From a virus: a stretch of DNA of 64,000 bases. The stretch covers positions 26,370 through 90,369 of the IMG/VR virus record IMGVR_UViG_3300034104_003795. The stretch is one strand, 5' to 3'. Below, in pieces: positions 2,380 through 58,861 of the stretch. Position 1 is the stretch's first letter; every line of letters begins with the position of its first letter. The notes under the pieces are model-generated. The model made no database searches and was not told the DNA's origin. It saw nothing but the letters and a program-made list of their open reading frames with translations. Made by a program: the position numbers and the translations under genes.

Positions 2380-5300
2380 ATGAAAAAAATCGGAAAATTT
2401 CTCCTTATGGTAGTGATAACACTATTATCATTTGGAGCAAGTGCGCAAGAAACTACCTCTGAAATTCAGGGTTTGGTTTCTGATGGAAAAGCCGGATTAG
2501 CAGGTGTAACAATTGTAGCTACTCACCAGCCAACGGGTACGAAGTATAGTACTTCTTCTCGTACTGATGGTAGATACAACTTGCCAAACTTGAAAATCGG
2601 TGGACCGTATTCAATTCACGTAACATCAATTGGTTTCAAAGCAGAACATCAAGACGATATTACATTGTTATTGGGTCAGTCACACAAGGCAAACTTTATT
2701 TTGAAAGAAGCATCAACAACTTTGAAAGAAGTAGTTGTAACTTCAGGACAAAGTAAGGTATTTAACTCTAGCCGTAATGGTTCTCAAGAGATTATCAACA
2801 GACAATTGATTGAGAGAATACCAAACGTTAATAGAAGCTGGAAAGATTTAGTTAAATTAGTACCTTCACAAAACAACTTATCATTTGGTGGTTTATCTTC
2901 TCAATTGAATAACGTTACTTTGGATGGTGCTAACTTCAATAACTCTTTCGGTTTAGGTGATGGTACATTGGGTGGTCAAACTGGAGCACAACCAATCTCA
3001 TTGGATGCGATTGAGCAAATCCAAGTTAACGTTTCACCGTTTGATGTTAAGTTCGGTGGTTTCGCAGGTGGTTCAATCAACACCGTAACTCGTAGTGGTA
3101 AGAACCAATCATTCGGTTCGGTTTACCAATTCTTTAAGAATAAAGATTTACAGGGTTACAAAGTTGGTGATGTAACTTTACCAAAGCAAGATTTCACTTA
3201 TGATTTAAAAGGATTCACCGCAGGTGGAGCAATTGTTAAAAACAAATTGTTCTTCTTTGTAAATGGTGAACAAGAAAGTAGAATGGAACCTGGTACACAA
3301 TGGGTAGCATCTGATGCCAACAATACACCAAATGGTATCAACGTATCTCAAGCTAAAGCAGCTGATTTGGATGCATTGAGAAAGTTCTTAATTGAAAAAT
3401 ATAATTACGATCCAGGTGCATATCAAGGATACCAATATGGTTCAGTATCAAAAAGATTGACTACTAAATTAGATTGGAATATTAATAGTAAAAATTCATT
3501 CTCATTGAAATATACACTATTACGTTCATCAGCAGATATTCCAGCATCTAACTCACAATCGGTAAATGCATCAAATGGTAGAAGACCAAGTACAACTTCA
3601 ATGCCGTTTTATGGTGGTGGTTATACGATTAATAACAATGCGGATATTATTATTGGTGAGTTAAACACTAGATTCTCAAATAACGCTTCCAACAAATTAC
3701 AAATTGGATACACTAAATTGAGAGATTTTAGAGGAACATTGACTAGTGGTAATTTCCCACAAGTAGATATATTAGATGGTAACGGTCAACCTTTCACAAC
3801 TTTTGGTTATGAAAGATTTACTTATGGTAACGTTTTAAATTCAGATGTAATTCAATTGAATAACATTTTCAACTTATATAAAGGTAAGCATGAATTTACA
3901 TTCGGTACACAAAATTCATTTAAGAAATATTCAAATGGATTCTCACCTAACTATGCCGGAGCATTCCGTTTTAATAGTTTAGCTGATTTCTACGCATCTG
4001 CAGAAGGTACAAAACCGGCAGCTGCGTATGATTTATCGTGGTCATTAACCGGTGATTTTCCGTTGGTTGGTCCAAAGAATACTGAATTAAGTTTATTTGC
4101 TCAGGACAAATTTAGAGTAAAAGATAACTTAACAATCACTTACGGTTTGAGAGCGGATTATGTATCTTTCGCTGATAATTTCCTTTACAATCCAGTAGTT
4201 GATACATTATCTAAATTCTATGATGGTGTAAGATTAAATACAGGTTTAGCACCTAAAAATGCTTTACAACTTTCGCCTAGAATTGGTTTCAACTGGGATG
4301 TGAATAATGACCAAACATTGCAAGTTCGCGGTGGTACTGGTTTATTTCAAGGACCTCCACCATTCGTTTGGATATCTAACCAAGCATCTAATAGTGGTAT
4401 GGCATTATTCGGAAGTATTACAAACGCAACCGGATATATGTTTAATCCAGATATTAATGCATATAGACCAACTCCAACACCTGGTTTATCTAGAGCATAT
4501 TCTCTTAACGTAACTGACCCTAACTACAAATTCCCTCAAGTATGGAAATCAACGTTAGCAGTAGATAAGAAAGTATTAGGATGGACCGTAACTGCGGAAG
4601 GAACTTATATTAAGAACATCAACGCTACTGTATTCCAAAACGTTGCATTACCTTCAACAGGAAATATTACGTTAAGTGATGGTAGAACTCGTTTCATCAA
4701 ACGTTCAGTTTACGATGCAACTGGAACTGCTCAAACATCAGCTAATCCAAACATTGGTAACGCAATTTATATGACTAATGCAAACGTTGGTTATGTATTA
4801 TTCGGAACATTGCAGGTTCAAAGACAATTTAAGAATTTAGCGGTAAACGCTTCTTACACTCGTCAAACTGCAAAAGATGGTACAATCAATGGTTCTACTG
4901 CATTTACAATGTGGGGAGCTAGACCAACATCTACAAACCCTAATAACTTTGAAGAAGGTTTTTCAAACAACTACCTACCTCATAGAATCATAGGTTCATT
5001 TGTTTATGGTAAAGAGTTTATTAAGAATACAAGAACTTCAATTGGTTTATTATATGAAGCTTCTCCAAATTCTCCACAATCTTCTCTATCTTACACATAC
5101 GCGGGTGATTTGAATAATGATGGTTTCAATGGTAATGATTTAATCTTCGTTCCTAAAGATGCATCTCAAATCAAATTAACTAACGCATCTGCAGTAGGTG
5201 GTGTAGCTGATACTCGTACACAAGAAGAATTATGGAATCAATTAGATGCTTTCATTTCAAATAACAAATACCTTTCAACTCGTAGAGGCCAGTTTGCTGA

Positions 5301-5640
5301 AAGACAAGCATTAGTATTACCTTGGGTTCATAGATTAGATTTGAATTTCACACAAGATGTTTATATCAAAGTTAAAGATACAAAACATACTTTAAGATTC
5401 ACAGCCGATATCTATAACTTCACAAACTTCATCAGCAAAGATTGGGGTGTAAACCAAACTCCAACAACTGTAACTCCACTTAACTTCGTAAGATTGGATA
5501 CTGATGGAAAAACTCCGGTATTCTCATTCCCTTATTTAGATGGAAGAAACAAAGTTCCGTTTACTGATTCATTCAGAGATAACGTAGGATTTAGTTCTCG
5601 CTACCAAATTCAATTGGGTGTAAGATATATCTTTAACTAA
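2380..5640 (+). CDS. TonB-dependent receptor-like outer-membrane protein (SusC/RagA-type, N-terminal carboxypeptidase-regulatory-like domain)
   Basis: 1086 aa; signal peptide MKKIGKFLLMVVITLLSFGASAQE; N-terminal 'GLVSDGKAGLAGVTIVATH...GRYNLPNLKIGGPYSIHVTSIGF' CarbopepD_reg-like; Gly/Asn/Thr/Tyr-rich beta-barrel-like body ending ...GVRYIFN. Confidence 0.7.
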   Translation: MKKIGKFLLMVVITLLSFGASAQETTSEIQGLVSDGKAGLAGVTIVATHQPTGTKYSTSSRTDGRYNLPNLKIGGPYSIHVTSIGFKAEHQDDITLLLGQSHKANFILKEASTTLKEVVVTSGQSKVFNSSRNGSQEIINRQLIERIPNVNRSWKDLVKLVPSQNNLSFGGLSSQLNNVTLDGANFNNSFGLGDGTLGGQTGAQPISLDAIEQIQVNVSPFDVKFGGFAGGSINTVTRSGKNQSFGSVYQFFKNKDLQGYKVGDVTLPKQDFTYDLKGFTAGGAIVKNKLFFFVNGEQESRMEPGTQWVASDANNTPNGINVSQAKAADLDALRKFLIEKYNYDPGAYQGYQYGSVSKRLTTKLDWNINSKNSFSLKYTLLRSSADIPASNSQSVNASNGRRPSTTSMPFYGGGYTINNNADIIIGELNTRFSNNASNKLQIGYTKLRDFRGTLTSGNFPQVDILDGNGQPFTTFGYERFTYGNVLNSDVIQLNNIFNLYKGKHEFTFGTQNSFKKYSNGFSPNYAGAFRFNSLADFYASAEGTKPAAAYDLSWSLTGDFPLVGPKNTELSLFAQDKFRVKDNLTITYGLRADYVSFADNFLYNPVVDTLSKFYDGVRLNTGLAPKNALQLSPRIGFNWDVNNDQTLQVRGGTGLFQGPPPFVWISNQASNSGMALFGSITNATGYMFNPDINAYRPTPTPGLSRAYSLNVTDPNYKFPQVWKSTLAVDKKVLGWTVTAEGTYIKNINATVFQNVALPSTGNITLSDGRTRFIKRSVYDATGTAQTSANPNIGNAIYMTNANVGYVLFGTLQVQRQFKNLAVNASYTRQTAKDGTINGSTAFTMWGARPTSTNPNNFEEGFSNNYLPHRIIGSFVYGKEFIKNTRTSIGLLYEASPNSPQSSLSYTYAGDLNNDGFNGNDLIFVPKDASQIKLTNASAVGGVADTRTQEELWNQLDAFISNNKYLSTRRGQFAERQALVLPWVHRLDLNFTQDVYIKVKDTKHTLRFTADIYNFTNFISKDWGVNQTPTTVTPLNFVRLDTDGKTPVFSFPYLDGRNKVPFTDSFRDNVGFSSRYQIQLGVRYIFN

Positions 5641-8516: not shown

Positions 8517-10391
8517 TTAAACTACATCTTTTTGTTTACGGTTGATATCTCTATCGGATAACTCTATGTTTGATACGGCACTAGAACCACCTTTTGCTCT
8601 TGCTTTATTATGTGCTCTATCTGTTTCTTCTGTAGACCCTAGCAGATTTACTAACTCGTCAAAATCGGATGAAACCAATTTAGAAACGGTTGGTAGTTCG
8701 GAGCATGATATAAATCCAATTTCGCAAAAAGGATGTTTAGATGTTTTCATATCAATCATAGTAGTTTGAAATGCATGTTCAATGTGTTTGTTAAATACAT
8801 TAATAACACACGAGTGGTCATGTCCCCAAGTTAATAAATCACCAATAAAGTGTCTACCAAAAGACTTTTCAATATCTTTTGTTTCGTTTTTTTCACATTT
8901 CTTTTCAATATCTACCCAATCATTTTGGTATTCTTTAGCCAAGTCTTTTGCAGAAAGAGGATGTGGTTTTGTTGTAAAATCAAAAGCTTTCTTACTTTTC
9001 CAAAATTCAATCTGGTCCTTACCATCTTCGGTTTGCCAATAATTAGTATTTTGTGGATGTGTTATTTTAGATTCTATAAAACATACCATAAGAATACTAT
9101 GAATAAATTCATACATATTTGAATCTTTTATATCCAATTTCCACTTATCTCTTCCGTGAGAATATACATAATTGTTTCTATAATAATTCAAAGCAAACAT
9201 ACAATATATGAAAAAGGAAGCCTTCTCATAAGTTTTTTTGAATACTTTAGCGTTGGGTTGGGCATCAATATCTGATATAGCAGCCATAACTTTTACCATA
9301 TCCGTAAGAAGTTTATCACCCCATTCTATTATAAAAGGCGAATCATCTTTAAATAAGATTTTACAAATGTCTGATTTTGTTTTTACCTCAAATCTATTAA
9401 TGGATTGTGGTTGAGCATAAATTGTAGCCATTAGTACTCCTATAAAGTATTGCCAACCACCATCATTTCTCTTAAAAGTACCTTTAGAGATTGATAATGG
9501 ACTTGTTTTAGTATAGAATAATTTCTCGTATTTATTTAAATCATTTGTTCTCTCTGGCATCAAATTATCTCTAAACCAAGTAGAATATGCGGAAAATGAT
9601 TGAATTGCTTCGAATGCAAAGTCATCCCATCCAGCCGATTGGTTACTTCGTTTAACGTATGTCATTATACTACTAAAATCATTTGAATCAACAATTTCAA
9701 TTATACATAATTGACAAGATTCCAAATAACTTTGAAATATATTTTTTCTTTCATCGTAACTCAAATCTTTTGCAAAATCATATAATAACCACTCACCTGC
9801 GGAACAAAGTTTTGTTTTTAATTCATGCAAACTCGTAACGGTTTCATTATAAACTTCACCATTAATTTCCGCCTTTAAATTAGAGTATTCAACTTGAGTT
9901 GTTTTTTTCTTATTTTTAGGTTCAAGATTTCCCAAATAATCTTGTTTTATAGAATCAAATCTATGTTGTCCATTGATTATGAAATACTGACCAGTTTTTT
10001 CAGTAAAGTAATTCAGATAAATTGTTAAACTAGCAATTACACTTTCGTATCTTTCAATCAAAACATTATTTTGCTTTGATTTTTTTGATTGTTCGTACTT
10101 TATATCTTCTCGTTTTTCATCAATCTGTCTTTTGATTATATTAACAACGGTTTCTGCTTTTATAATATAATACCCTGCGGAAGTACCATACCCAGTTGTT
10201 ACTGATGCGCACATTCCCTTTTGTGTATCAAAATTCAACTCTCTCATTAAGCGATTTAGAGTTGGGTCATTGATGATTACATCAATATTATCAATTAATG
10301 ATTTTAGAGAAGTTCCAAATATTCTAGTGAGAATATCTTTAGATGCTGTTATTTTTATAGCATCGTTTTCAAATAAAGGAGAATATATCAT
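8517..10391 (-). CDS. large nuclease-like protein, possibly GmrSD-like (DUF262 ParB-like + DUF1524 His-Me finger)
   Basis: 624 aa; 'YFIINGQHRF' resembles DUF262 (I/V)DGQQR motif; C-terminal 'GHDHSCVINVFNKHIEHAF' His-rich HNH-like patch; weak, by-eye only. Confidence 0.35.
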   Translation of the reverse strand: MIYSPLFENDAIKITASKDILTRIFGTSLKSLIDNIDVIINDPTLNRLMRELNFDTQKGMCASVTTGYGTSAGYYIIKAETVVNIIKRQIDEKREDIKYEQSKKSKQNNVLIERYESVIASLTIYLNYFTEKTGQYFIINGQHRFDSIKQDYLGNLEPKNKKKTTQVEYSNLKAEINGEVYNETVTSLHELKTKLCSAGEWLLYDFAKDLSYDERKNIFQSYLESCQLCIIEIVDSNDFSSIMTYVKRSNQSAGWDDFAFEAIQSFSAYSTWFRDNLMPERTNDLNKYEKLFYTKTSPLSISKGTFKRNDGGWQYFIGVLMATIYAQPQSINRFEVKTKSDICKILFKDDSPFIIEWGDKLLTDMVKVMAAISDIDAQPNAKVFKKTYEKASFFIYCMFALNYYRNNYVYSHGRDKWKLDIKDSNMYEFIHSILMVCFIESKITHPQNTNYWQTEDGKDQIEFWKSKKAFDFTTKPHPLSAKDLAKEYQNDWVDIEKKCEKNETKDIEKSFGRHFIGDLLTWGHDHSCVINVFNKHIEHAFQTTMIDMKTSKHPFCEIGFISCSELPTVSKLVSSDFDELVNLLGSTEETDRAHNKARAKGGSSAVSNIELSDRDINRKQKDVV

Positions 10392-10466
10392 TTTTTATGT
10401 TTTATGGGTTTAAAATCTTTTAACTATACAAATATACAACTATTTTTTCAGACCACCAAATCTTTT

Positions 10467-10973
10467 TTAATATTTTATTAGGGATACCACATTTTTACCA
10501 CCGATTCGGATATCACCATGTAGGTAGGTTAAATCAATAAGGGTTACTGCTCCAATCACATTATACCCAGCTAACCTCAATAGTTCCTCTGCCGCAAGTA
10601 AAGTTCCGCCAGTAGCAAGAACATCATCTACAATCACTATATCACCTTTACCTTCTTTAACCTCTAATATATCATGTCCATACTCTTTGGATGAATCTAT
10701 TTTTATTGTAGGTGGTGGTAACTTACCTGCCTTACGAATAGGAACGAATCCTTTACTATCTACTCCTGCGATTGCGGAAGCAAATATAAATCCTCTTGCC
10801 TCTATTCCTGCAACTGAATGACAAGGAAAGTTTTCATCTATTAAAACTACCATTTCATCTATCGCAGATTGAAATGCTCTACCATCTGAAAGGAGTGGTG
10901 TTATATCCCTAAAAGTTACTCCGTCAATCGGAAATCCTTCTACATCGTTAATTAATCTTTTTAAATTTTCCAT
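10467..10973 (-). CDS. apt: adenine phosphoribosyltransferase
   Basis: 168 aa; 'GVTFRDITPLL' N-terminal APRT signature and PRPP-binding 'IVIVDDVLATGGTLLAA'. Confidence 0.85.
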   Translation of the reverse strand: MENLKRLINDVEGFPIDGVTFRDITPLLSDGRAFQSAIDEMVVLIDENFPCHSVAGIEARGFIFASAIAGVDSKGFVPIRKAGKLPPPTIKIDSSKEYGHDILEVKEGKGDIVIVDDVLATGGTLLAAEELLRLAGYNVIGAVTLIDLTYLHGDIRIGGKNVVSLIKY

Positions 10974-10974
10974 T

Positions 10975-11280
10975 TTATATTGTGTTTAAATAATGTACCA
11001 ATGATTCGCCAAAAAGTTCCATATCATGTAATGTTGCTTGATATACAACATCTTCTATAATATCTCCAGTAGAATCATTCATAAGTTTTATATCATAGGT
11101 AAGTTCACTCCATTCATCATTTAATAAACCTTGCCTAAATATAACCAATGTTATTGTTCGTTTACCATCTTTATGTCTGGCCTGCAAAGCATAATGTTCT
11201 TTACCCGCATCGGTTCTACCAATCTGCCAATCACCATACCATTGGTTTTGTATCTTCTTAAAATTTTCTATTGTTAGCAT
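10975..11280 (-). CDS. MLTIENI-family small protein (array A, member 1)
   Basis: starts MLTIENFKKIQNQWYGDWQIG; conserved N-terminus and W-x-I...Y-x-F pattern. Confidence 0.6.
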   Translation of the reverse strand: MLTIENFKKIQNQWYGDWQIGRTDAGKEHYALQARHKDGKRTITLVIFRQGLLNDEWSELTYDIKLMNDSTGDIIEDVVYQATLHDMELFGESLVHYLNTI

Positions 11281-11282
11281 AA

Positions 11283-11753
11283 TTAAAAAGGTATTACTGG
11301 ATGGTATTTATCAACTATTTCTTCTACCATTCCCCAAAAGTTTTTATAATTCAAATCATGCCCTCTAAACCAACCTCTATAATCCCATTCACCTTTATCA
11401 TCGTTAATATACACTTGATACATCATTTCTGGATAATATGGTACAGGTGCAACTTGAAGTTCTCTACCCAAAGTAATATATACTCTCAATTTTTTATCTT
11501 CTCTATGTACAAGTTGAAATGTATATACTTCTTCCGATTCATCCGCAGATAGAATATCCCATCCCCAAAAAATCATCGTAGTAAGTTCTTTATCGTAATT
11601 TTGTATATGTAATTTTTTCTTTTTCATATTTGGTTCTTTTGGTGTAACTGTTACTATAACCTTTCCATAGTTTTTAGGATTGATTGGTTTACTATATCCC
11701 TTTCTAATAAGTTGGTTAGGTCTAAATCCACCTTTTAATTTATTTATTCTCAT
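11283..11753 (-). CDS. MLTIENI-family related protein with N-terminal extension (array A)
   Basis: internal 'LHIQNYDKELTTMIFWGWDILSADESEEVYTFQL' matches family pattern; start could alternatively be internal MKKKK. Confidence 0.5.
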   Translation of the reverse strand: MRINKLKGGFRPNQLIRKGYSKPINPKNYGKVIVTVTPKEPNMKKKKLHIQNYDKELTTMIFWGWDILSADESEEVYTFQLVHREDKKLRVYITLGRELQVAPVPYYPEMMYQVYINDDKGEWDYRGWFRGHDLNYKNFWGMVEEIVDKYHPVIPF

Positions 11754-11754
11754 A

Positions 11755-12063
11755 TTACATTGATGCCTTTAAGCAACTACTAAACGTTCTCATCACATTT
11801 GTAAATTTTCCAAACCATTTCGCAGTTATAATATGAATTGGACAATTAGGATAGTTTAATCGGTATTCCCATGCCTTCTCAATATCATTATAATGCCCAA
11901 TCTTACTTACCTCAATCCAAATATAACGGTGTACACCGGAACTATCATCTCTGAATTGAAATCTATAATTTGTATCCGTTTCAATAGCCTCAGTACAAAT
12001 AAATCTTTCTTTATGAAACATCGCTGTTACTATCTTATCGTAATTTTGTATTATTAGTTTCAT
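11755..12063 (-). CDS. MLTIENI-family divergent member (array A)
   Basis: MKLIIQNYDKIV...; family-like pattern. Confidence 0.5.
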   Translation of the reverse strand: MKLIIQNYDKIVTAMFHKERFICTEAIETDTNYRFQFRDDSSGVHRYIWIEVSKIGHYNDIEKAWEYRLNYPNCPIHIITAKWFGKFTNVMRTFSSCLKASM

Positions 12064-12067
12064 TCAT

Positions 12068-12376
12068 CTATTTTTTATGTTCTGATTGAATATAACATTC
12101 CATCATCAACCAAAATTGCTCCTTATCTTTAAATTGAGAAAGTGGTAGTTGCCCTTTCCAAATTATATTCGTATAAGAACGATACATAACACTAACCTCA
12201 ACTTTACCATTTTTAATTTCTCTCCCTAATTGTACCGCAGCATGTGTAGTATTACCATCAATACATTTCAATTTAAATGTATAATACTGATTGGTTTCTT
12301 GTGCAAAATATATTACCCAATTTTGTATTAGATAATTCTTTAAATCTGCGTAATTACTAATATCTAACTTTTTCAT
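12068..12376 (-). CDS. MLTIENI-family divergent member (array A)
   Basis: 'NYLIQNWVIYFAQETNQYYTFKL' family pattern. Confidence 0.5.
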   Translation of the reverse strand: MKKLDISNYADLKNYLIQNWVIYFAQETNQYYTFKLKCIDGNTTHAAVQLGREIKNGKVEVSVMYRSYTNIIWKGQLPLSQFKDKEQFWLMMECYIQSEHKK

Positions 12377-12384
12377 TTATTATA

Positions 12385-12687
12385 TTATCTTTGTAACCCA
12401 CCCATTATTTCGGTGAATTTGTTCACTAAATTATTTATATCTTTTATATAGTCAAGCGTTACCGCATATCCTATTGGTTTATCATCTAATGTAAATTTAT
12501 ATTCTCCACTACTTTCAGCAATTCTATTAAGAGATAATTTCCTTACATCATCTATTTTACCTGTTAAAGGGTTTTTTCTTAACAATACGAAGTGATACCA
12601 ATTGTCAGTTTCACTAATACTATCCACCAACCAATGTTTGTCAAACGCATATTGGTTTAATTTATTTACATTTAATATTGTTAGCAT
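12385..12687 (-). CDS. MLTIENI-family member (array A)
   Basis: MLTILNVNKLNQYAFDKHWLV... Confidence 0.6.
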   Translation of the reverse strand: MLTILNVNKLNQYAFDKHWLVDSISETDNWYHFVLLRKNPLTGKIDDVRKLSLNRIAESSGEYKFTLDDKPIGYAVTLDYIKDINNLVNKFTEIMGGLQR

Positions 12688-12688
12688 G

Positions 12689-12964
12689 TTATATTAATTC
12701 ATCTATTAAAAATCTTACAAACTCATCTCTATCTCCCATACACTCTATTGGTAGATAATGTTCTTTTTGTGTTTCTAAACAATAGACATGATAATCACCA
12801 TGCTTTGTTTTCTTCCTATCAATACAAAGGTTAAACATATCAAAAGGTGAACCATTGTGTATTGTCTTTATATAGTAGATATCATCTCCTATTGACAAGT
12901 TATGTATCTTCCAATGGCCTATATACTTACCAGCCAATGTATTTATGTTTTGTATTGTTAGCAT
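12689..12964 (-). CDS. MLTIENI-family member (array A)
   Basis: MLTIQNINTLAGKYIGHWKIH... Confidence 0.6.
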   Translation of the reverse strand: MLTIQNINTLAGKYIGHWKIHNLSIGDDIYYIKTIHNGSPFDMFNLCIDRKKTKHGDYHVYCLETQKEHYLPIECMGDRDEFVRFLIDELI

Positions 12965-12965
12965 T

Positions 12966-13286
12966 TTATATCTTTTCTTTGTTCATTAAAATATATTCCA
13001 ATTGGTTAATCATATTATCTTTATCGGCTATGAAATCTGCGGTGACACATACATCGGTTCGTTTTGAATCAAATATGAAGAAGTACGATAAGTTAGGTGA
13101 ACCAACACCTCTAATACCAGTTCTCTCCAACATAATCTTATGTCTTGTTGTGAATCCACTCCCATCCCAATCCTTAACCAATTCAAATATGTAAGTATCG
13201 GGTCTACCTTCATATATCAGTTGTATTGTCCAACCATCTGCCAAAGGTCTCCCTTCTAATTTCAATATGTTTTCTATTGTTAGCAT
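12966..13286 (-). CDS. MLTIENI-family member (array A)
   Basis: MLTIENILKLEGRPLADGWTIQ... Confidence 0.6.
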   Translation of the reverse strand: MLTIENILKLEGRPLADGWTIQLIYEGRPDTYIFELVKDWDGSGFTTRHKIMLERTGIRGVGSPNLSYFFIFDSKRTDVCVTADFIADKDNMINQLEYILMNKEKI

Positions 13287-13287
13287 C

Positions 13288-13668
13288 TTAAATTAAATTT
13301 TGGTCTTTAGCCCATCTCATTATCACCTTGGTTGCGTACATTTCTAAATTGTTTTGGAATAGTTTCATATCCTTTATTTGTGATATCTTTAACCAATCAT
13401 CACTATCCATTAAATTATTTTCCATTTGGTATATTCCTTTTTCATCCGGCGTTCTACGAAGATAGATACAAAGTGGTACATCATAATCCGAAACGGCTTT
13501 ATATTCAAATCGGTATGATTCATCCGTCTCACCTGTTACTGCAGTTACATCACCGGGAAACTCAATAACTCGCTCACACTCCCATTCTAATAATTCAGAA
13601 GGGACGTACAAGTTTTGAAGTTTTATTTTAGTACCTACTAATTTTTCTATGTTCTTTATTGTTATCAT
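13288..13668 (-). CDS. MLTIENI-family member (array A)
   Basis: MITIKNIEKLVGTKIKLQNL... Confidence 0.55.
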   Translation of the reverse strand: MITIKNIEKLVGTKIKLQNLYVPSELLEWECERVIEFPGDVTAVTGETDESYRFEYKAVSDYDVPLCIYLRRTPDEKGIYQMENNLMDSDDWLKISQIKDMKLFQNNLEMYATKVIMRWAKDQNLI

Positions 13669-14036
13669 CCGAATACTAAATTTTTAATATCATCATATTG
13701 TTTAATACTAGCACCATTCAAACTATTTTTTACAATATACACACCAAACCTTCTCAACGAGCCCATCATTACTCTTTTAGAATTAAAGGAATTTGACCTA
13801 ACTCTTAAAGGATACGCCATATCTTTGGAATGATTAACTAAATAACAACCCCAACCCAATTCTTTTGGATGGGCTGAACTTCTCATAATGATAAGATAAC
13901 AAATGTGGTTCTCTATACCATCGTTGTACATAAACTCAATAGCATACAAATCTCTTTGAGCAACACAATATATTACCGATATCTTATCATCGGTCCATCC
14001 ACCTAACTTTTCAACACCATCAATAGTTAATCTCAT
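13665..14036 (-). CDS. MLTIENI-family member (array A)
   Basis: MRLTIDGVEKLGGWTDDKISVIYC... Confidence 0.55.
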   Translation of the reverse strand: MRLTIDGVEKLGGWTDDKISVIYCVAQRDLYAIEFMYNDGIENHICYLIIMRSSAHPKELGWGCYLVNHSKDMAYPLRVRSNSFNSKRVMMGSLRRFGVYIVKNSLNGASIKQYDDIKNLVFG

Positions 14037-14127
14037 ATTATACGTTTAGCAGGATATCAATAACATTAATAAGAGTATAAGCAAATACACTCCTAACATT
14101 TTCATTGTAGTCCAATCGTTTTTCTTT

Positions 14128-14487
14128 TTAGTTTTCATCCCAATACTTTTTACCTTTACGAACAACCTCATGCATACAAGCGATGAAGTATCCAAATTTC
14201 TTTATATCATCTACATCCAAATACTCAATCGTTACACCATGCAATCCCATCCAAAACAATTCGTACTTACCAGATACGTTTGGGTTTCGGTAAAGATAAA
14301 TTTTGAAACTATCTTCCCATTGTTTATATGGATTATTGGTTTTGGTGATGAAAGGTATTGCCGGAAAATGGAATACATACGCACTCCCATTAACTATCTC
14401 ACCTTTCTCTACCGTTATCTTTTCAATAGTACGATTGTGGAAATGGTGACCGGTAAGTTTGTTGATACCTTCTATGTTTAAGACCAT
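14128..14487 (-). CDS. MLTIENI-family divergent member (array A)
   Basis: MVLNIEGINKLTGHHF... Confidence 0.5.
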   Translation of the reverse strand: MVLNIEGINKLTGHHFHNRTIEKITVEKGEIVNGSAYVFHFPAIPFITKTNNPYKQWEDSFKIYLYRNPNVSGKYELFWMGLHGVTIEYLDVDDIKKFGYFIACMHEVVRKGKKYWDEN

Positions 14488-14723
14488 ATACCTTTCAGTT
14501 TTAAAAAGTTAAGGAATGAAGATTTCGGAGATACAGTCGAAAAATCATATTGGTCGTTGAGGTAATTTGCTTTGATAGTACTTTCCGGGTCTACATACGA
14601 TTGAGAAACCTTCAACTCCGCCTTCCATTGTTGGTATTGAGGATTTAGCATAGTAGTTGTTCTTTCGTTTTCCAAGACCTCATACGCTTGGACATCATTG
14701 TAGTTGTTATAAGTTGTACTCAT
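14478..14723 (-). CDS. hypothetical protein (81 aa)
   Basis: ORF overlapping upstream neighbour by 10 nt. Confidence 0.4.
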   Translation of the reverse strand: MSTTYNNYNDVQAYEVLENERTTTMLNPQYQQWKAELKVSQSYVDPESTIKANYLNDQYDFSTVSPKSSFLNFLKLKGIWS

Positions 14724-14745
14724 AATAAGGGTTTTATAATATAAA

Positions 14746-14961
14746 TTAATCTAAATAGTTATCAAATAGTAGGTATATCGTCCATACTACACCGAATACC
14801 AATACACCTGCTATAAAGGCAATGGAAACCGGTGGTATTAATAGGAATACCTTAAATGGCCGTTCCTTTAACCATCTCTTATCAGTATCGGAGAATATAA
14901 ATTGAATACCTAATGCTGATAGGAAGTTTAATAGGAATAGGATAAGGAATAGTAATACCAT
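14746..14961 (-). CDS. small membrane protein (2 TM, 71 aa)
   Basis: two hydrophobic helices. Confidence 0.45.
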   Translation of the reverse strand: MVLLFLILFLLNFLSALGIQFIFSDTDKRWLKERPFKVFLLIPPVSIAFIAGVLVFGVVWTIYLLFDNYLD

Positions 14962-15206
14962 TATTTCTTTGATTTAGTACGTTTAGTAGAAGCGGGTTTA
15001 GTTTCTTCTACAATCCCTGTGTTATCTGATGCCGTAGGGATTGTATCATCTATAAACTGACCACCATACGGAAAGAATTGTTTCCCACTAATACTGATGG
15101 AATGGATACGTCCAACTTTTCCTTTGATATGTGATTCGGATGGGTTTTCGGAATAGTACACACCATCTACTAACATCTTACCTTCTCTAACTTTAAAACT
15201 TTTCAT
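14961..15206 (-). CDS. hypothetical protein (81 aa)
   Basis: start/stop overlap with neighbour. Confidence 0.4.
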   Translation of the reverse strand: MKSFKVREGKMLVDGVYYSENPSESHIKGKVGRIHSISISGKQFFPYGGQFIDDTIPTASDNTGIVEETKPASTKRTKSKK

Positions 15207-15241
15207 AATCTTTAATTTTTGTTTTTATAATGAATAATTGT

Positions 15242-15598
15242 TTATACTAAATAATTTTGTTGAACGAACTTTAAGATATTGGTTCTATCCTTACCCGATA
15301 CACCTTTGAATGATTTGAACGAATAGATATCATCCGCCCAATACTTTGTCATAGTGTTGGTATGTGTAGGACGTACCTCAAAGAAACGTACAAAGAAGTA
15401 ATTGGGTTCACCACCGAATTCACTTTTGATACTAATAGGTACATATACTACCTCGCAACTATCCGAAGGAATCTTTGTTACTTCATCTAACCATATATCA
15501 ATAGGTTTAGAGAAATGTGAAAACCTCTCTATCTCATTGTAGAACCTTTTCCAAGTACTCTTACTTAACTTAATTGAATCTACATACTTCATAGCCAT
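15242..15598 (-). CDS. hypothetical protein (118 aa)
   Basis: ORF only. Confidence 0.45.
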   Translation of the reverse strand: MAMKYVDSIKLSKSTWKRFYNEIERFSHFSKPIDIWLDEVTKIPSDSCEVVYVPISIKSEFGGEPNYFFVRFFEVRPTHTNTMTKYWADDIYSFKSFKGVSGKDRTNILKFVQQNYLV

Positions 15599-15617
15599 AA
15601 TCTTAATTTTTATTTTA

Positions 15618-15941
15618 TTACTTTGTGTTTAATGCGGGTTTGTGTTTCTTAACCAATTCCATCTCTCTAATGTGAGCGGCCTCTTTACCTCTTACTACAT
15701 CTAATACCGATACTTCATATACCAATTCTAAATCATCAATGTAGTTGAACATATCCATATACAATTTCCAATCCCAATTTTCCCTTCTCGCTCTACTAAA
15801 ATGTTTTTGTAACCGAACCTTTGCGGAACGAAGGAACGCCCGACCGGTTGAAGCCGTAATACCAATATATTCGTTACCATTGAAGGTATTTGTAATAAGG
15901 TATATAATATGATTCCTATCTGTACGTTTCTTCCTACTCAT
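15618..15941 (-). CDS. GIY-YIG domain endonuclease (free-standing, homing-endonuclease-like)
   Basis: 'HIIYLITNTFNGNEYIGIT' = GIY-x10-YIG motif near N-terminus; start set at internal ATG 15939-15941 (MSRKKRTD...) because the ORF-track start at 16073 is TTG and a promoter-like motif lies at 15963-15994. Confidence 0.6.
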   Translation of the reverse strand: MSRKKRTDRNHIIYLITNTFNGNEYIGITASTGRAFLRSAKVRLQKHFSRARRENWDWKLYMDMFNYIDDLELVYEVSVLDVVRGKEAAHIREMELVKKHKPALNTK

Positions 15942-15962
15942 ATCTAACTTAACTTTTATACC

Positions 15963-15994
15963 TAAAATTACGAAAATTAATTGAGACCACCAAA
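15963..15994 (-). promoter_or_regulatory. Bacteroidetes-type promoter candidate (minus orientation: -33 TTTG ... -7 TAATTTTA)
   Basis: +strand 'taaaattacgaaaattaattgagaccaccaaat'; same architecture as other minus-strand promoters in window. Confidence 0.35.
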
Positions 15995-16079
15995 TTCTAC
16001 CTAAAAGTTCTCGATTGGAAATCAACCCTTTATAGATATATTTTAACCCCATACATAAGTCATTGACCGTCAACCAAGT

Positions 16080-21644: not shown

Positions 21645-22001
21645 TTACTTTCCTTTCTTTCTGTATGCACGTTTGACAAGTTTTTCGTTTTCCCTTGCTT
21701 GTATTTCGTATGGGTTATTTTTGTACCCGTATTTAATTTGATAATGATTGTACCAGCGGTATGACTGTTGTGCATGTGTCCATTCGTGTAGAATTGTTTT
21801 CTGAACCGCCACCATTCGTTTACATTGTGCTAAATTAATCCAAATTGTTTTTTCCCAATCGTAGTAACCACATTCGGCATCCTCTTTGGTATCCCAGTAA
21901 AAAGCAATTGCTCCACATCTGCTTTCACCCAGTTTTTCATGAGCCCAATTCCATAAACGGTTACAATCAAACTTCATTCCTATTTTATTACTTACACGCA
22001 T
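21645..22001 (-). CDS. putative zinc metallopeptidase-like protein (HExxH)
   Basis: 'ILHEWTHAQQSYRWYNHY'; paralog of 49120-49488 ('IVHEYTHYLQDPRWMTRYY'). Confidence 0.5.
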   Translation of the reverse strand: MRVSNKIGMKFDCNRLWNWAHEKLGESRCGAIAFYWDTKEDAECGYYDWEKTIWINLAQCKRMVAVQKTILHEWTHAQQSYRWYNHYQIKYGYKNNPYEIQARENEKLVKRAYRKKGK

Positions 22002-23829: not shown

Positions 23830-24156
23830 TTATTGATTTACTATATTTTTTATATGAGTGTCCAAGCAAAAAGTAAAACTACTTATGGTCCTCATATACT
23901 CTATATCCCATGCCGAACGTCCATGAAAGCTTTGTTTTACTAGTCCGGTCTCCATTACATACCCACCTATTGTTTTTACTCTATTCAATTTTATAGTCAA
24001 CTCATCACGCCTAAAACCCCCGATTGTCCAATAACCTACCCGTTTATGGATTACAAATATATAGTTTTGTTCACCTATAAACATTTCACCTATCCGCCAT
24101 TCGGGTGTACCGGCAAACTTACTATTGAGTATGTTTATGTTTTCTATTGTTAGCAT
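23830..24156 (-). CDS. MLTIENI-family member (array B)
   Basis: MLTIENINILNSKFAGTPEWRIG... Confidence 0.6.
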   Translation of the reverse strand: MLTIENINILNSKFAGTPEWRIGEMFIGEQNYIFVIHKRVGYWTIGGFRRDELTIKLNRVKTIGGYVMETGLVKQSFHGRSAWDIEYMRTISSFTFCLDTHIKNIVNQ

Positions 24157-24157
24157 A

Positions 24158-24466
24158 CTATTCTTTTAACATTTTATCAATTAAGTTTCCTATAAAATAC
24201 GGCGTTATTTGATGCATACTCAACCATCTATTTACTTTACTTTGGTCAAAATCTTTATATAACCTATAAACGGGTTCGTTTCTGCCACTTACATATTGGC
24301 TCTCTCTATTCAAATAAAATACATTTTGTACCTTACCGTTTACAGAAACAGCAAATGCATATACATCCTTATAAACATCGGTTGTTTCTATCGCTTCACT
24401 TATATACCATATGTTAATAGATGAACCCACATTTATTATTTTATCTATGTTTTGTATTGTTAGCAT
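24158..24466 (-). CDS. MLTIENI-family member (array B)
   Basis: MLTIQNIDKIINVGSSINIWYIS... Confidence 0.6.
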   Translation of the reverse strand: MLTIQNIDKIINVGSSINIWYISEAIETTDVYKDVYAFAVSVNGKVQNVFYLNRESQYVSGRNEPVYRLYKDFDQSKVNRWLSMHQITPYFIGNLIDKMLKE

Positions 24467-24783
24467 AGTATATATTTGTTTACTAAAAATTCTATTGAGC
24501 TTACAAACTGTCTCATGTCCGATATATCCTTTGTTCTTAAATATATTCTACTCGTAGGATTACTATTATCATACATCGCGTAGGTTGTTTCCATATTAGG
24601 ACCAAATACGTCCGAAGTTCTAAGTAAAACTAATAACTCGTCAGATTTTGATTTACGCGGACATCTTAAATGTATTTGATATGCTCTTTCATATTGAGTA
24701 GTATTTCTTATATAATATTCTACAACACGATTCTTAACTATTGGTACATCTAATATCTTATATGTATTTTCTATTGTTAGCAT
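24460..24783 (-). CDS. MLTIENI-family member (array B)
   Basis: start set at internal MLTIENTYKILD (ORF track started 54 nt upstream at alternative codon). Confidence 0.55.
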   Translation of the reverse strand: MLTIENTYKILDVPIVKNRVVEYYIRNTTQYERAYQIHLRCPRKSKSDELLVLLRTSDVFGPNMETTYAMYDNSNPTSRIYLRTKDISDMRQFVSSIEFLVNKYILC

Positions 24784-24793
24784 ATTATTTGTT

Positions 24794-25117: not shown

Positions 25118-25127
25118 ATATTATTTT

Positions 25128-25451
25128 TTATATATCGTATGAGGTATCAATCATTTCAGTCATTCGTTTTATCAATAACCTCTTATCACTTATAGTTTCA
25201 ATTGGTATGTATGTTTTAATCTTATACATTCTTTGCATACCCGGCCCACCTGCTGATATTCCAAATTCATATCCAATTCCATGTAGGTTTTGTTTATTCA
25301 AAGCAAATATTTCTTTTGGGCCTTTTCTATTTTCAATTAAGATTAGGTATTCATCGGTGTCATCTATAATTTTGTCCACTACCCAATACATACCCATCTT
25401 ATCATAAAACGAATCACTTATTAACCGTCCTCTATTTTCTATTGTGAGCAT
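25128..25451 (-). CDS. MLTIENI-family member (array B)
   Basis: MLTIENRGRLISDSFYDKMGMYWVV... Confidence 0.6.
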   Translation of the reverse strand: MLTIENRGRLISDSFYDKMGMYWVVDKIIDDTDEYLILIENRKGPKEIFALNKQNLHGIGYEFGISAGGPGMQRMYKIKTYIPIETISDKRLLIKRMTEMIDTSYDI

Positions 25452-25758
25452 ATATCATTCCAGTTTGTATGTGTAACTCTAATATGAAGTTTTTCATTGT
25501 AAGGTTTTCCGGCGTTACATAAACATTTTGTTTTAGTTTTGCCGATGTCATTTCATATCCCCTACTATTCCTTATAGTTCGCATCAATTTATATACAATA
25601 CCATCGTTTATACTTGCCACATTGTTTTCCATCAAAGGAAATACCCCAAAACTATAATGGTCATAATATGCTCTTGCGATACCAATTATAAACTTCCGTC
25701 CGCTACTCAATTGGAATTCCTTACCGTCTATATTTTGTATGTTTTCTATTGTCAACAT
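25432..25758 (-). CDS. MLTIENI-family member (array B)
   Basis: MLTIENIQNIDGKEFQLSSGRKFII... Confidence 0.6.
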   Translation of the reverse strand: MLTIENIQNIDGKEFQLSSGRKFIIGIARAYYDHYSFGVFPLMENNVASINDGIVYKLMRTIRNSRGYEMTSAKLKQNVYVTPENLTMKNFILELHIQTGMIYAHNRK

Positions 25759-25918: not shown

Positions 25919-25927
25919 ACGATTTAT

Positions 25928-26366: not shown

Positions 26367-26675
26367 TTATTTTAAAGATTCTAACATATCTTTTATCAAA
26401 TCAGTCACATATACAGTGCCTAACTTCAAATCCGGTTTATTTAATATCCTTCTAATTGGTATTCCACTTCCCGATTGATTAGACCAAAACCATAATTCAT
26501 AAAGTGCCGAATCACTCTTACCTATTGCGGTTCGTTCTAAATTAACTTGCAATCGTAGGCCATTGGATTTTCTTAATTCAATTAGGTATGCACTATCCAA
26601 TGTTACTACTTTACCTATTCTCCATTCACCTACATCCTGTTTGTAAAGTTTTTCTATGTTTACTATTGTTAGCAT
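26367..26675 (-). CDS. MLTIENI-family member (array B)
   Basis: MLTIVNIEKLYKQDVGEWRIGKV... Confidence 0.6.
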   Translation of the reverse strand: MLTIVNIEKLYKQDVGEWRIGKVVTLDSAYLIELRKSNGLRLQVNLERTAIGKSDSALYELWFWSNQSGSGIPIRRILNKPDLKLGTVYVTDLIKDMLESLK

Positions 26676-26676
26676 A

Positions 26677-26973
26677 CTAAATAAATGATTCTAAATGATT
26701 ACTGAATATATCAATATTTTTCATATCGTCTCTGTGTATATACTTTTTTTCATTTCCACATTCTAATTTGTATTGGTGTCCAAGTTTAAACGGTGAAAAA
26801 CTTCTGTCCAAAACTATTTTCTTGTCCCAACCATTTTCAGTTTGCTCAATAAAAATTACATAGTGATTCAAATGTGGTCTTATTGAAGTTACAACCCATT
26901 CCATTGGACCGGCACTTCCGCTACCATGCAATATAGTACCTAATAACTTTTTTTCGTTTTCTATTGTTAGCAT
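26677..26973 (-). CDS. MLTIENI-family member (array B)
   Basis: MLTIENEKKLLGTILHGSGSAGPMEWVV... Confidence 0.6.
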   Translation of the reverse strand: MLTIENEKKLLGTILHGSGSAGPMEWVVTSIRPHLNHYVIFIEQTENGWDKKIVLDRSFSPFKLGHQYKLECGNEKKYIHRDDMKNIDIFSNHLESFI

Positions 26974-26974
26974 C

Positions 26975-27337
26975 TTAATAAGTGTTTGGTAGCATATATC
27001 TTAATACATCAATAAATTTATCCATTGTGTCTATATCGGTACAATATCCACGTTGTACTTGTCCATAACAAAACAATTCATATGTATTTTCATGTTGAAC
27101 TCTATAAAAACTTAACTTAGCTTCCTCAATTCTTGCACGAGTCATAGAATAGTATTGCTGATTAGGTGAACTTATAACAGGCACTTGCGTTTGGAATTGA
27201 AATACATATGTAATTTCGTCATCCATCGTTACATTGACGTTTGTTACACACCAAATCAAATTACCGGTTGCACTTGGTATAATTGTTTTTAATAACTTTT
27301 CAGGATTTTTTAATATCATTTTATTTGTTATTATCAT
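26975..27337 (-). CDS. MLTIENI-family divergent member (array B)
   Basis: MIITNKMILKNPEKLL...GNLIWCV. Confidence 0.5.
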   Translation of the reverse strand: MIITNKMILKNPEKLLKTIIPSATGNLIWCVTNVNVTMDDEITYVFQFQTQVPVISSPNQQYYSMTRARIEEAKLSFYRVQHENTYELFCYGQVQRGYCTDIDTMDKFIDVLRYMLPNTY

Positions 27338-28648: not shown

Positions 28649-28653
28649 AATTT

Positions 28654-58845: not shown

Positions 58846-58861
58846 ATTATTAAGTTGTTTG

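What the first reader, a model, noticed from the sequence alone, without database searches (positions are those of the whole stretch)
10975..14487. Tandem array A: about eleven copies of a ~100-aa paralogous gene family with an invariant MLTIENI N-terminus
Ten to eleven adjacent minus-strand ORFs of 91-156 aa share the start MLTI(E/Q/L)N(I/V)xKL. Downstream they share a W-x-(I/V)-x(5-9)-Y-x-(F/L) pattern but are otherwise highly diverged. The first 15-18 nt are nearly identical at the DNA level (ATGCTAACAATAGAAAAY). Copies are separated by 0-8 nt or overlap slightly. I do not recognise the family. Such hyper-expanded, fast-diverging small-protein families in phages are typical of arms-race functions such as anti-defence, host take-over, or decoys for variable host targets.
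Basis: seen in the sequence. Interest (0 to 1): 0.8.

Follow-up and report, generated by a model that had tools for sequence, protein, structure and literature searches.

The report
Recombining phage array of small paralogous proteins
A large uncultured phage, probably of Bacteroidota, carries 19 copies in two tandem arrays of an unannotated ~100-residue protein family, and copies are gained and lost by recombination inside a short conserved sequence at the start of each gene; what the proteins do is unknown, most likely each binds a different host or phage protein.

Summary

"Fast-diverging" holds only in part. Orthologues in related phages have dN/dS 0-0.47, and five anchor members keep their order across lineages, while interior cassettes come and go.

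The new result is that the 5' motif ATGCTAACAATAGAAAAC is conserved at codon level (CTA at Leu2 in 10 of 12 genes against 9% background). Two independent indels of whole cassettes have their crossover inside it.

Function is inferred, not shown: a birth-and-death array of specific protein binders for host take-over or counter-defence. A role as T4-type capsid-targeted internal proteins failed its sequence test. It is a new family and a new variant of a known kind.

The parts
14128..14487 (-). m10, 119 aa, family member (MVLNIEGINKL); first gene of array A; anchor member
   Evidence: An orthologue is present in all four related lineages. It is cut short to 53 codons in L005.
13665..14036 (-). 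m9, 123 aa, the most divergent member (MRLTIDGVEKL)
   Evidence: E 6e-22, self-trained profile; E 1.4e-5, metagenomic profile. Orthologue dN/dS 0.27-0.43.
13288..13668 (-). m8, 126 aa (MITIKNIEKL); its start overlaps the end of m9 by 4 nt
   Evidence: dN/dS 0.03-0.15.
12966..13286 (-). m7, 106 aa (MLTIENILKL)
   Evidence: The allele in L001 is a diverged mosaic (76% aa identity, dS 0.35).
13266..13286 (-). 21-nt repeat ATGCTAACAATAGAAAACATA at the start of m7; crossover site of a two-cassette indel
   Evidence: The window sequence equals the upstream flank of L001 cassette x1, then the shared 21-mer, then the body of the L001 m7 orthologue. L001 carries two extra members (L001 8626-9321) between the two copies of the repeat.
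12689..12964 (-). m6, 91 aa (MLTIQNINTL)
   Evidence: 99-100% aa identity in L001 and L005, dN/dS 0-0.04.
12385..12687 (-). m5, 100 aa (MLTILNVNKL); anchor member
12068..12376 (-). m4, 102 aa (MKKLDISNYADL); flanked in relatives by extra genes that the window lacks
   Evidence: (70% aa identity to L001/L005, dS 0.39-0.47).
11755..12063 (-). m3, 102 aa (MKLIIQNYDK); anchor member
   Evidence: (100% aa identity, dN 0).
11283..11753 (-). m2, 156 aa; the family domain (encoded by 11283-11627) follows a 42-residue basic N-terminal extension; anchor member
   Evidence: full length conserved, dN/dS 0.12-0.18. AlphaFold2: residues 1-39 have pLDDT below 50, then the same helix, five strands and helix. 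The motif is internal in this member.
10975..11280 (-). m1, 101 aa (MLTIENFKKI); last gene of array A; the member modelled; anchor member
   Evidence: AlphaFold2 pLDDT 92.1, pTM 0.81. Among 74 orthologues, variability is concentrated in residues 52-85.
10467..10973 (-). Phosphoribosyltransferase gene 1 nt downstream of m1, co-oriented (context; conserved neighbour in relatives)
   Evidence: Pfam PF00156, E 1e-11. Synteny in L001, L005, L007.
26975..27337 (-). B9, family member (MILKNPEKLL from 27319); first gene of array B
   Evidence: E 9e-8.
26677..26973 (-). B8, 98 aa (MLTIENEKKL)
   Evidence: (E 5e-9 with the array-A-only profile). The exact protein is on at least 21 public contigs.
26367..26675 (-). 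B7, 102 aa (MLTIVNIEKL)
   Evidence: (E 3e-9).
25432..25758 (-). B6, 108 aa (MLTIENIQNI)
   Evidence: (E 1e-6).
25128..25451 (-). B5, 107 aa (MLTIENRGRL); its 5' motif ATGCTCACAATAGAAAA is the crossover site of a four-cassette deletion in relative L014
24794..25117 (-). B4, 107 aa (MLKIKNIQKI)
   Evidence: (E 3e-9).
24460..24783 (-). B3, 107 aa from the ATG at 24783 (MLTIENTYKIL); the mechanical ORF runs on to a TTG at 24837
24158..24466 (-). B2, 102 aa (MLTIQNIDKI)
   Evidence: (E 1e-9).
23830..24156 (-). B1, 108 aa (MLTIENINIL); last gene of array B
   Evidence: Its body is fused to the B5 start in L014.

Best explanation
Array A is half of a lineage-specific multigene family. The window holds 19 genes in two arrays, and public metagenomes hold hundreds of clusters.

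Shown:
- Each gene encodes a small soluble single-domain protein with the same scaffold: a short N-terminal helix, a five-stranded antiparallel sheet and a C-terminal helix.
- The conserved residues alternate along the strands (every second position).
- The remaining positions are highly variable, and pI ranges from 4.7 to 9.6.
- The genes are packed 1-10 nt apart, or overlap, inside long same-strand gene runs with no Shine-Dalgarno sequence. The phage uses Bacteroidota-type promoters.
- The arrays change by birth and death of whole cassettes. The first ~18-21 nt of each gene (ATG CTA ACA ATA GAA AAC) are kept nearly identical among paralogues at codon level.
- This repeat is where unequal crossovers happen. 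Two independent indels of whole cassettes between close relatives have their junction inside it.
- Individual cassettes are also present as diverged alleles with raised dS (mosaicism).

Inferred:
- The alternating conserved residues face the helices and form the core, so the variable positions are on the exposed face of the sheet and its hairpins.
- Each paralogue uses that variable face to bind a different partner.
- The family acts as a set of specific inhibitors or adaptors for host take-over or counter-defence, for example against host toxins, nucleases or sensors.
- The five anchor members meet constant needs, and the variable interior cassettes meet strain-specific ones.

My confidence by step: real family with a shared fold 0.95; recombination at the 5' motif drives copy-number change 0.8; binder, take-over or counter-defence function 0.4.
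For: Family and fold:
- Full-length alignment.
- A profile from array A alone detects array B.
- 444 clusters at E<=1e-3, all stand-alone and about 67-156 aa.
- AlphaFold2 pLDDT 92 for m1, and the same fold in m2.

Scaffold against surface:
- Over 150 representatives, conservation sits at L2, I4, N6, K9, W20, V22, Y32, F34, L50, R52, Y63 and helix positions. It alternates i, i+2 in the strands.
- pI 4.7-9.6.
- Variability among 74 m1 orthologues is concentrated in the beta3-beta5 hairpins. That region has dN/dS 0.33-0.86, against 0.03-0.28 elsewhere.

Members are functional:
- Orthologue dN/dS is 0-0.47.
- Anchor members keep their order in four lineages.

The arrays are accessory and dynamic:
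- Cassette-level indels occur in both arrays.
- One relative has a premature stop in m10.
- Diverged alleles have dS 0.30-0.47, next to neighbours at 0.06-0.12.

The motif:
- 13 sites against 0.23 expected.
- CTA at Leu2 in 10 of 12 genes, against 8.9% background (binomial 1.7e-9). ACA in 11 of 11 and ATA in 13 of 13.
- The codons differ in more distant lineages. That points to homogenisation within a lineage.
- Junction 1 lies inside a 21-nt identical repeat.
- Junction 2 is a hybrid gene: the B5-specific ATGCTC, then the shared ACAATAGAAAA, then the B1 body.

Fold neighbours are protein-interaction or dimerisation modules: capping protein, type III secretion chaperones, a YbjN-like protein, RWD domains, the FP domain, an immunity protein and part of an anti-CRISPR protein. 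All are weak.

Host type: TTTG...TAnnTTTG promoters, 18 against 4.7 expected. The nearest helicases are in Bacteroidota phages.
Against: - No partner, target or phenotype is known.
- No member or relative carries a fused domain that hints at function.
- No site reaches dN/dS above 1 at the resolution available, so diversifying selection is not demonstrated.
- Time of expression is not established. The nearest host-type promoters lie about 4.5 kb upstream of each array.
- The crossover evidence rests on two junctions. Two other indels in array A show no motif repeat at their junctions (junctions 2 and 3).
- The codon-level conservation could partly reflect selection on translation initiation.
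Confidence: 0.5

Rival explanations
1. T4-type internal (ejected) proteins. On this view the conserved N-terminus is a capsid-targeting tag that loads a diverse set of small proteins into the prohead. They would then be injected with the DNA to disarm host defences, as T4 IPI* does.
For: - The layout is the same as at the T-even IP loci: a short conserved N-terminus, unrelated or highly diverged bodies, and a polymorphic tandem locus in a large myovirus-like genome. T-even internal proteins are described as a diverse set of defence proteins that share only the capsid-targeting sequence (PMC3012670; PMC9026906).
- The window has T4-like accessory content: a Kyano_Gp96 homologue, a Seg-like GIY-YIG endonuclease and a tRNA block.
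Against: - The T4 tag ends in a prohead-protease site L/I-x-E. No such site is conserved here. It is found in 0 of 19 window members within the first 20 residues. Among representatives it is found in 19 of 150, at scattered positions, the same rate as in a control region.
- The motif is internal in m2 and its orthologues, after a conserved 42-residue extension.
- The N-terminal segment belongs to the homologous domain and is modelled with it (pLDDT 79 over residues 1-10, then 95).
Confidence: 0.1
2. Dedicated chaperones or adaptors for the phage's own proteins, for example assembly or folding helpers, each serving one phage client. This is by analogy with type III secretion chaperones and YbjN-like proteins.
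For: - The phage invests in folding helpers: GroES and cyclophilin genes at 28202-28965.
- Anchor members are conserved across lineages.
Against: - The matches are weak and share only a generic alpha/beta layout.
- Members lie among small accessory genes, far from any structural module in the window.
- Interior cassettes are gained, lost and truncated between near-identical phages. That is unexpected for essential assembly factors.
Confidence: 0.12
3. The codon-level conservation of the 5' motif is selected for translation, and recombination there is only a by-product. Possible reasons are an unstructured A-rich start for termination-reinitiation in a host without Shine-Dalgarno pairing, or a CUA codon read by the phage's own tRNA-Leu(UAG). 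This rivals only the role proposed for the motif.
For: - No Shine-Dalgarno sequence precedes the genes, and stop and start are 1-2 nt apart at six of the nine junctions inside array A.
- The motif is A-rich (10 A in 18 nt) and its only G residues are those of the ATG and GAA codons.
- The phage encodes tRNA-Leu(tag) at 58861-58942.
- The host type is Bacteroidota.
Against: - Related lineages use TTA or TTG at Leu2, and ACG or ATT at the next codons, in orthologous genes. So no fixed nucleotide sequence is required.
- Anchor members m2, m3, m4, m9 and m10 lack the motif, yet they are conserved and presumably translated.
Confidence: 0.3
4. Decaying or selfish duplicates with no function of their own.
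For: One relative has a truncated m10. Cassettes are dispensable between relatives.
Against: - All 19 reading frames are intact.
- Orthologue dN/dS is 0-0.47.
- The fold is conserved at 11-33% identity.
- The family persists in several phage lineages.
Confidence: 0.03

Closest known systems
T-even phage internal-protein (IP) loci with the capsid-targeting sequence
   Same: Tandem, polymorphic small genes in a large phage. They share a short conserved N-terminal coding segment, and the rest is diverse. The known example, IPI*, is an anti-restriction binder (PMC3012670, PMC9026906).
   Different: Here the whole protein is homologous, with one fold. There is no conserved L/I-x-E processing site. 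The motif can be internal (m2). Virion packaging is untested.
PeSL-mediated modular shuffling in hyperplastic regions of T4-type phages (Arbiol et al. 2010, PMC2839356; Comeau et al. 2014, PMC4122927)
   Same: Short conserved repeats scattered through an accessory region act as recombination joints. They create insertions, deletions and replacements of small genes of unknown function between close relatives.
   Different: PeSLs are intergenic units of a promoter plus a terminator stem-loop. Here the gaps between genes are 1-10 nt, and the repeat is the first 6-7 codons of the gene itself. Crossovers are therefore in frame and yield intact or hybrid genes.
Multigene families and gene 'accordions' of large eukaryotic DNA viruses, such as ASFV MGF360/505 and poxvirus K3L amplification (own knowledge)
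   Same: Tandem paralogue arrays in variable genome regions, with copy-number change by unequal recombination. They are linked to host range and immune evasion.
   Different: A bacterial virus, an unrelated fold, much smaller proteins, and no phenotype known.
Tandem arrays of diverged immunity genes in bacteria, such as orphan immunity or acquired interbacterial defence clusters of Bacteroidales (own knowledge)
   Different: No toxin or effector gene lies nearby. The arrays are phage-encoded, and there is no sequence relation to any immunity family in Pfam.
Type III secretion chaperone / YbjN-like and capping-protein-like alpha/beta sandwiches

Membership tests
T4-type internal proteins with capsid-targeting sequence | An N-terminal propeptide of ~10 residues ending in a prohead-protease site L/I-x-E (PMC9026906) | tested here: not met
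   0 of 19 window members have [LI]xE in the first 20 residues. 19 of 150 representatives do, at scattered positions, equal to the control region.
T4-type internal proteins with capsid-targeting sequence | The tag sits at the extreme N-terminus and is separable from the mature protein | tested here: not met
   The motif is internal in m2 and its orthologues. It also lies within the homologous, modelled domain.
T4-type internal proteins with capsid-targeting sequence | The protein is present inside the mature head and is ejected into the host | not testable with these tools
   Needs virion proteomics.
PeSL regulatory cassettes of T4-type hyperplastic regions | An intergenic unit of a strong early promoter plus a terminator stem-loop flanking the shuffled genes | tested here: not met
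   Gaps between genes are -38 to 10 nt, apart from one of 91 nt and one of 130 nt. No enrichment of promoter-like or terminator-like sites in 10000-16000.
PeSL regulatory cassettes of T4-type hyperplastic regions | Indel and replacement junctions between close relatives fall in the repeated element | tested here: met
   Met for the coding 5' motif rather than for a PeSL: junctions. This is an analogy in mechanism, not membership.
Any curated protein family (Pfam-A, PHROGs v4, NCBIfam, PDB sequences) | A score above the family threshold | tested here: not met
   The best hits have E>=0.005 and are mutually inconsistent.
Type III secretion chaperone / YbjN-like fold | Significant structural superposition with the same topology | tested here: inconclusive
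Anti-CRISPR / anti-defence loci | An adjacent HTH regulator (aca-like), or homology to a known anti-defence protein | tested here: not met
Polymorphic-toxin immunity arrays | Linkage to a toxin or effector gene, or membership of an immunity family | tested here: not met
   The neighbours are a phosphoribosyltransferase, small unknown ORFs and a GIY-YIG endonuclease. No Pfam immunity family matches.

The most novel reading that the evidence does not exclude
The family is a built-in diversity generator. The in-frame 18-21-nt sequence at the start of every gene would be maintained by concerted evolution as a recombination joint. Co-infecting phages could then swap, delete, duplicate and hybridise cassettes without breaking reading frames. 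The result would be a population-level library of small binders, on one previously undescribed scaffold, that neutralise different Bacteroidota defence or toxin proteins. It would be a functional parallel to integron cassettes or T4 PeSLs, but encoded inside the genes themselves.
Probability: 0.3. Interest if true: 0.75.

Novelty: new variant of a known kind. Interest (0 to 1): 0.55.

Why it matters
Large phages of Bacteroidota are abundant in waters and guts, yet almost none of their accessory genes have a known role. This one unannotated scaffold supplies 19 genes in a 64-kb window and hundreds of clusters in metagenomes. Its model is confident, some members are conserved and others strain-variable, and there is a visible mechanism for gain and loss of cassettes.

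That makes it a tractable candidate set for finding counter-defence or take-over proteins. The anchor and variable members can be tested against host panels. It is also a clean natural example of how a coding repeat can organise modular evolution in a phage genome.

Tried and rejected
- Megablast of the array against 50,697 phage records: no match.
- tblastn of B3, of m6 and of a family consensus against the same records: no match, even at E<=1 (B3) or E<=10. The consensus is K/E-rich and may have been masked.
- Pfam, PHROGs and NCBIfam on members, on extra cassettes and on the 216-aa and 208-aa extended members of relatives: nothing.
- PDB profile search: one hit at E 0.71.
- BFVD and PDB Foldseek: nothing at E<=0.001.
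- The afdb50 library was not available.
- The search for related loci with the family alignment failed, because no stretch was conserved enough. With m1 it found two IMG/VR contigs and nothing in bacterial or archaeal genomes, so there is no evidence of a prophage or a cellular origin.
- Rfam on the window: only the 25 tRNAs.
- Sigma-70 promoter and terminator scan of 10000-16000: not above shuffles.
- DNA mimicry as a common function is unlikely, because pI spans 4.7-9.6.
- Positive selection was not demonstrated.
- Literature searches for sample accessions and for phage paralogue arrays gave nothing specific.
- A paper on aquatic Bacteroidota jumbo phages ('moraphages', PMC12619734) does not mention such arrays. 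Whether the window belongs to that lineage was not tested.
- Homo- or heterodimer prediction could not be run with the tools.

Full report
**Observation**

Between 14487 and 10975 the minus strand carries ten consecutive ORFs of 91-156 aa. I call them m10 to m1 in transcription order. Gaps between them are -4 to 8 nt, except for 91 nt between m10 and m9. m1 is followed after 1 nt by a phosphoribosyltransferase gene.

Pairwise identity is only 11-33%. Even so, the MAFFT alignment is colinear over the whole length. The shared positions are M-L-T-I-x-N-x-x-K-L, W-x-[IV], Y-x-F, I-x-L-x-R, Y-x-L and an amphipathic C-terminal segment.

The N-terminus is less uniform than reported. Four of the ten genes start with MLTI, and m8 starts MITI. 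m9, m10, m3 and m4 carry variants. In m2 the motif is internal, after a 42-residue extension.

**A second array of the same family**

A profile built from array A alone finds eight ORFs at 23830-26973 with E 1e-9 to 1e-4, and a ninth (26975-27337) at 0.073. Nothing else in the window scores below 0.19. A profile built from 150 metagenomic representatives recovers all 19 genes (E 2e-21 to 1e-5), and the next ORF scores 0.08. That profile may include orthologues of the window's own genes, so it is not fully independent.

Array B is split by two unrelated ORFs (25721-26236). Similarity between the arrays is as high as within them, for example m6-B1 at 36% and m1-B7 at 37%. The two arrays are therefore not separate recent expansions.

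**Distribution**

An exhaustive HMMER search of 1.84 billion representatives gives 444 clusters (50% identity) at E<=1e-3. The 150 best listed are stand-alone proteins of 67-156 aa matched end to end, and none carries a second domain. The word-indexed search gives 414 hits, none with a Pfam domain, and all named ones are called hypothetical.

No curated library recognises the family: Pfam, PHROGs, NCBIfam and PDB sequences all give nothing. No cultured phage record matches, and no bacterial or archaeal genome does either.

Related metagenomic contigs are syntenic with the window (L001/L003, L002, L005, L006, L007-L009). A different lineage, on a 191.7-kb contig with GC 34.5% (L011), has at least 11 members within 20 kb.

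**The phage**

The window has about 31% GC. Nearly all its genes are on one strand, and it carries 25 tRNA genes. It also encodes a DNA ligase, a GIY-YIG endonuclease, GroES, a cyclophilin and a Kyano_Gp96 homologue.

The nearest helicases are in Bacteroidota phages, at 37% identity. The Bacteroidota promoter pattern TTTG-N17-23-TAnnTTTG occurs 18 times against 4.7 expected, with an extended consensus TTCGTATATTTG. The family genes have no Shine-Dalgarno sequence. A Bacteroidota host is therefore likely.

An exact copy of B8 lies on contigs in the 0.2-1 Mb class. The genome is therefore probably over 200 kb. None of those long contigs was fetched or inspected.

**Structure**

AlphaFold2 with the 19-sequence alignment gives pLDDT 92.1 and pTM 0.81 for m1. 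The elements are helix 7-10, strands 18-25, 29-36, 42-54, 59-68 and 74-80, and helices 81-85 and 87-100. m2 gives the same domain after a disordered N-terminal 39 residues.

The fold is thus a generic two-layer alpha/beta module of the kind used for protein-protein contacts. It has no identifiable family.

Across 150 representatives the conserved positions alternate in the strands and recur at helical spacing in the C-terminal helix. I read this as one sheet face packed by the helices and the other exposed and variable. The model coordinates could not be inspected to confirm it. pI ranges from 4.7 to 9.6.

**Evolution of orthologues**

Against L001 and L005, dN/dS is 0 to 0.47 for every member. 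The m3 protein is identical in both relatives and the m6 protein in one (99% in the other). m1, m4, m7 and m9 are the fastest.

The fast members also have raised dS (0.30-0.47, against 0.06-0.12 in neighbours). Their divergence forms patches confined to single gene bodies, flanked by 97-100% identical DNA. I read these as diverged alleles brought in by recombination, not as faster substitution in place.

In 74 m1 orthologues, variability is concentrated in residues 52-85, the beta3-beta5 hairpins. That region has dN/dS 0.33-0.86, against 0.03-0.28 elsewhere. This is relaxed or diversifying, but not demonstrably positive selection.

Clustering members at 40% identity gives this order map for array A:
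- Window: 0 5 6 7 8 1 9 2 3 4
- L001: 0 5 6 23 24 7 8 1 9 10 2 3 4
- L005: 0 5 6 7 8 1 9 10 2 3 4
- L006: 0 11 25 12 1 13 2 3 4
- L007: 0 11 12 1 26 10 13 2 3 4

Five anchors (m10, m5, m3, m2, m1) therefore keep their identity and order, while the interior turns over. In L005 the m10 orthologue stops after 53 codons.

**The 5' motif**

ATGCTAACAATAGAAAAC occurs 13 times with at most 3 mismatches, against 0.23 expected. Every occurrence is at a family start codon. The conservation goes beyond the protein level:
- Leu2 is CTA in 10 of 12 genes, though CTA is 8.9% of Leu codons in the window (binomial 1.7e-9).
- Thr3 is ACA in 11 of 11 genes (background 42%).
- Ile4 is ATA in 13 of 13 genes (background 40%).

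In the more distant L006 and L007, the orthologous genes use TTA, TTG or CTA, and also ACG and ATT. The nucleotide identity is therefore a within-lineage homogenisation, not a universal requirement.

**Cassette junctions**

1. L001 has two extra members (x1 and x2, L001 8626-9321) between m8 and m7. The window sequence equals the upstream flank of x1, then the 21-mer ATGCTAACAATAGAAAACATA, then the body of m7. The 21-mer is present at both ends of the extra segment in L001.
2. In array B, L014 lacks B5 to B2. Its remaining gene starts with the B5-specific ATGCTC, continues through the shared ACAATAGAAAA, and then follows the body of B1 (90% aa identity). The sequence upstream is that of B5.
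3. L015 has two further extra members in array B.
4. Two other differences in array A lack a motif repeat at their junctions. One is an 89-aa membrane-protein ORF and the other a 216-aa extended member, both present in L001 and L005 and absent from the window.

Two independent unequal crossovers inside the motif are direct evidence that it acts as a recombination joint. Repeated exchange of this kind would also explain its homogenisation.

**Comparison with known systems**

The nearest analogy in layout is the T-even internal-protein locus, where diverse small proteins share only a capsid-targeting sequence (PMC3012670). That tag is defined as the first ~10 residues ending in the prohead-protease site L/I-x-E (PMC9026906). 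No such site is conserved here. The motif can also be internal (m2), and it belongs to the folded domain. Membership is therefore rejected on sequence grounds, though packaging itself is untested.

The nearest analogy in mechanism is PeSL-mediated modular shuffling in T4-type hyperplastic regions (PMC2839356; PMC4122927). Here there is no room between the genes for a promoter-terminator unit, and the joint is coding and in frame.

Multigene families of large eukaryotic DNA viruses and bacterial immunity-gene arrays are looser parallels (own knowledge).

**Verdict**

The family is unannotated and has a confident, generic binding-type fold.

Three lines of evidence favour a birth-and-death set of specific binders used for take-over or counter-defence: a conserved scaffold with variable surfaces, purifying selection on each member, and cassette-level turnover between near-identical phages. 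This function is inferred, with confidence about 0.4.

The recombination role of the 5' motif is the best-supported new point, at about 0.8. I rate the finding a new variant of a known kind, with interest 0.55.

Noticed in passing
window 2380-5640 (+): The phage encodes a 1086-aa SusC/TonB-dependent-receptor-like outer-membrane protein (CarboxypepD_reg, Plug and OMP beta-barrel domains). It lies on the opposite strand, behind a perfect Bacteroidota-type promoter (2152-2183). It is conserved in all related contigs (L001, L005, L006, L007).
   Followed up: partly
window 2172, 5693 (+); 19124, 22040, 32749, 44805, 62115 (-) and near matches: A repeated extended promoter consensus, TTTGG...TTCGTATATTTG (Bacteroidota -33/-7 type), occurs 18 times against 4.7 expected by chance. 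It probably marks the host-RNA-polymerase (early) transcription units of this phage.
   Followed up: partly
window 58861-58942 (-) and family start codons: The phage carries tRNA-Leu(UAG), which reads CUA. CUA is a rare Leu codon in the window (9%), yet it is codon 2 in 10 of 12 ML-type family genes. A link between the two is untested.
   Followed up: no
window 58861-63850 (-): A block of 25 tRNA genes, found by both ARAGORN and Rfam.
   Followed up: yes
window 28202-28965 (-): Adjacent phage genes for a cyclophilin-type peptidyl-prolyl isomerase (148 aa) and a GroES/Cpn10 co-chaperonin (103 aa), lying upstream of array B in the direction of transcription.
   Followed up: partly
window 53257-54792 (-): A 511-aa tryptophan-halogenase-family protein (PF04820, E 7e-89). 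This is an unusual auxiliary gene for a phage.
   Followed up: no
window 11628-11753 (-), N-terminus of m2: A conserved 42-residue basic extension (MRINKLKGGFRPNQLIRKGYSKPINPKNYGKV...) precedes the family domain and is predicted to be disordered. Extended forms of 145-156 aa are kept in four lineages, and several metagenomic members have ~34-residue extensions.
   Followed up: partly
L001 10874-11524 and L007 8297-8923: Extended family members (216 and 208 aa) have a C-terminal half with no match in Pfam. They are absent from the window.
   Followed up: partly
L001 10310-10579; L005 8002-8271: An 89-aa hydrophobic (membrane-type) ORF sits inside array A of relatives, between m5 and m4. It is absent from the window.
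   Followed up: partly
L014 11850-12245: A PDDEXK_11 nuclease-family gene directly follows the B5/B1 hybrid gene in this relative, at a place where the window has a different sequence.
   Followed up: no
window 21645-22001 and 49120-49488 (-); 25928-26236 and 38114-38419 (-): Two further pairs of distant paralogues in the window: 35% identity (E 4e-8) and 23% identity (E 6e-5).
   Followed up: no
window 8517-10391 (-): A 624-aa ORF with no Pfam match and no BLAST hit in L001 or L005. Those contigs carry different ORFs of 545 and 606 aa at the same place, so this is a replaceable locus next to array A.
   Followed up: partly
window 15618-16073 (-): A GIY-YIG (SegE-like) homing-endonuclease-type gene lies about 1.1 kb upstream of array A.
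   Followed up: no
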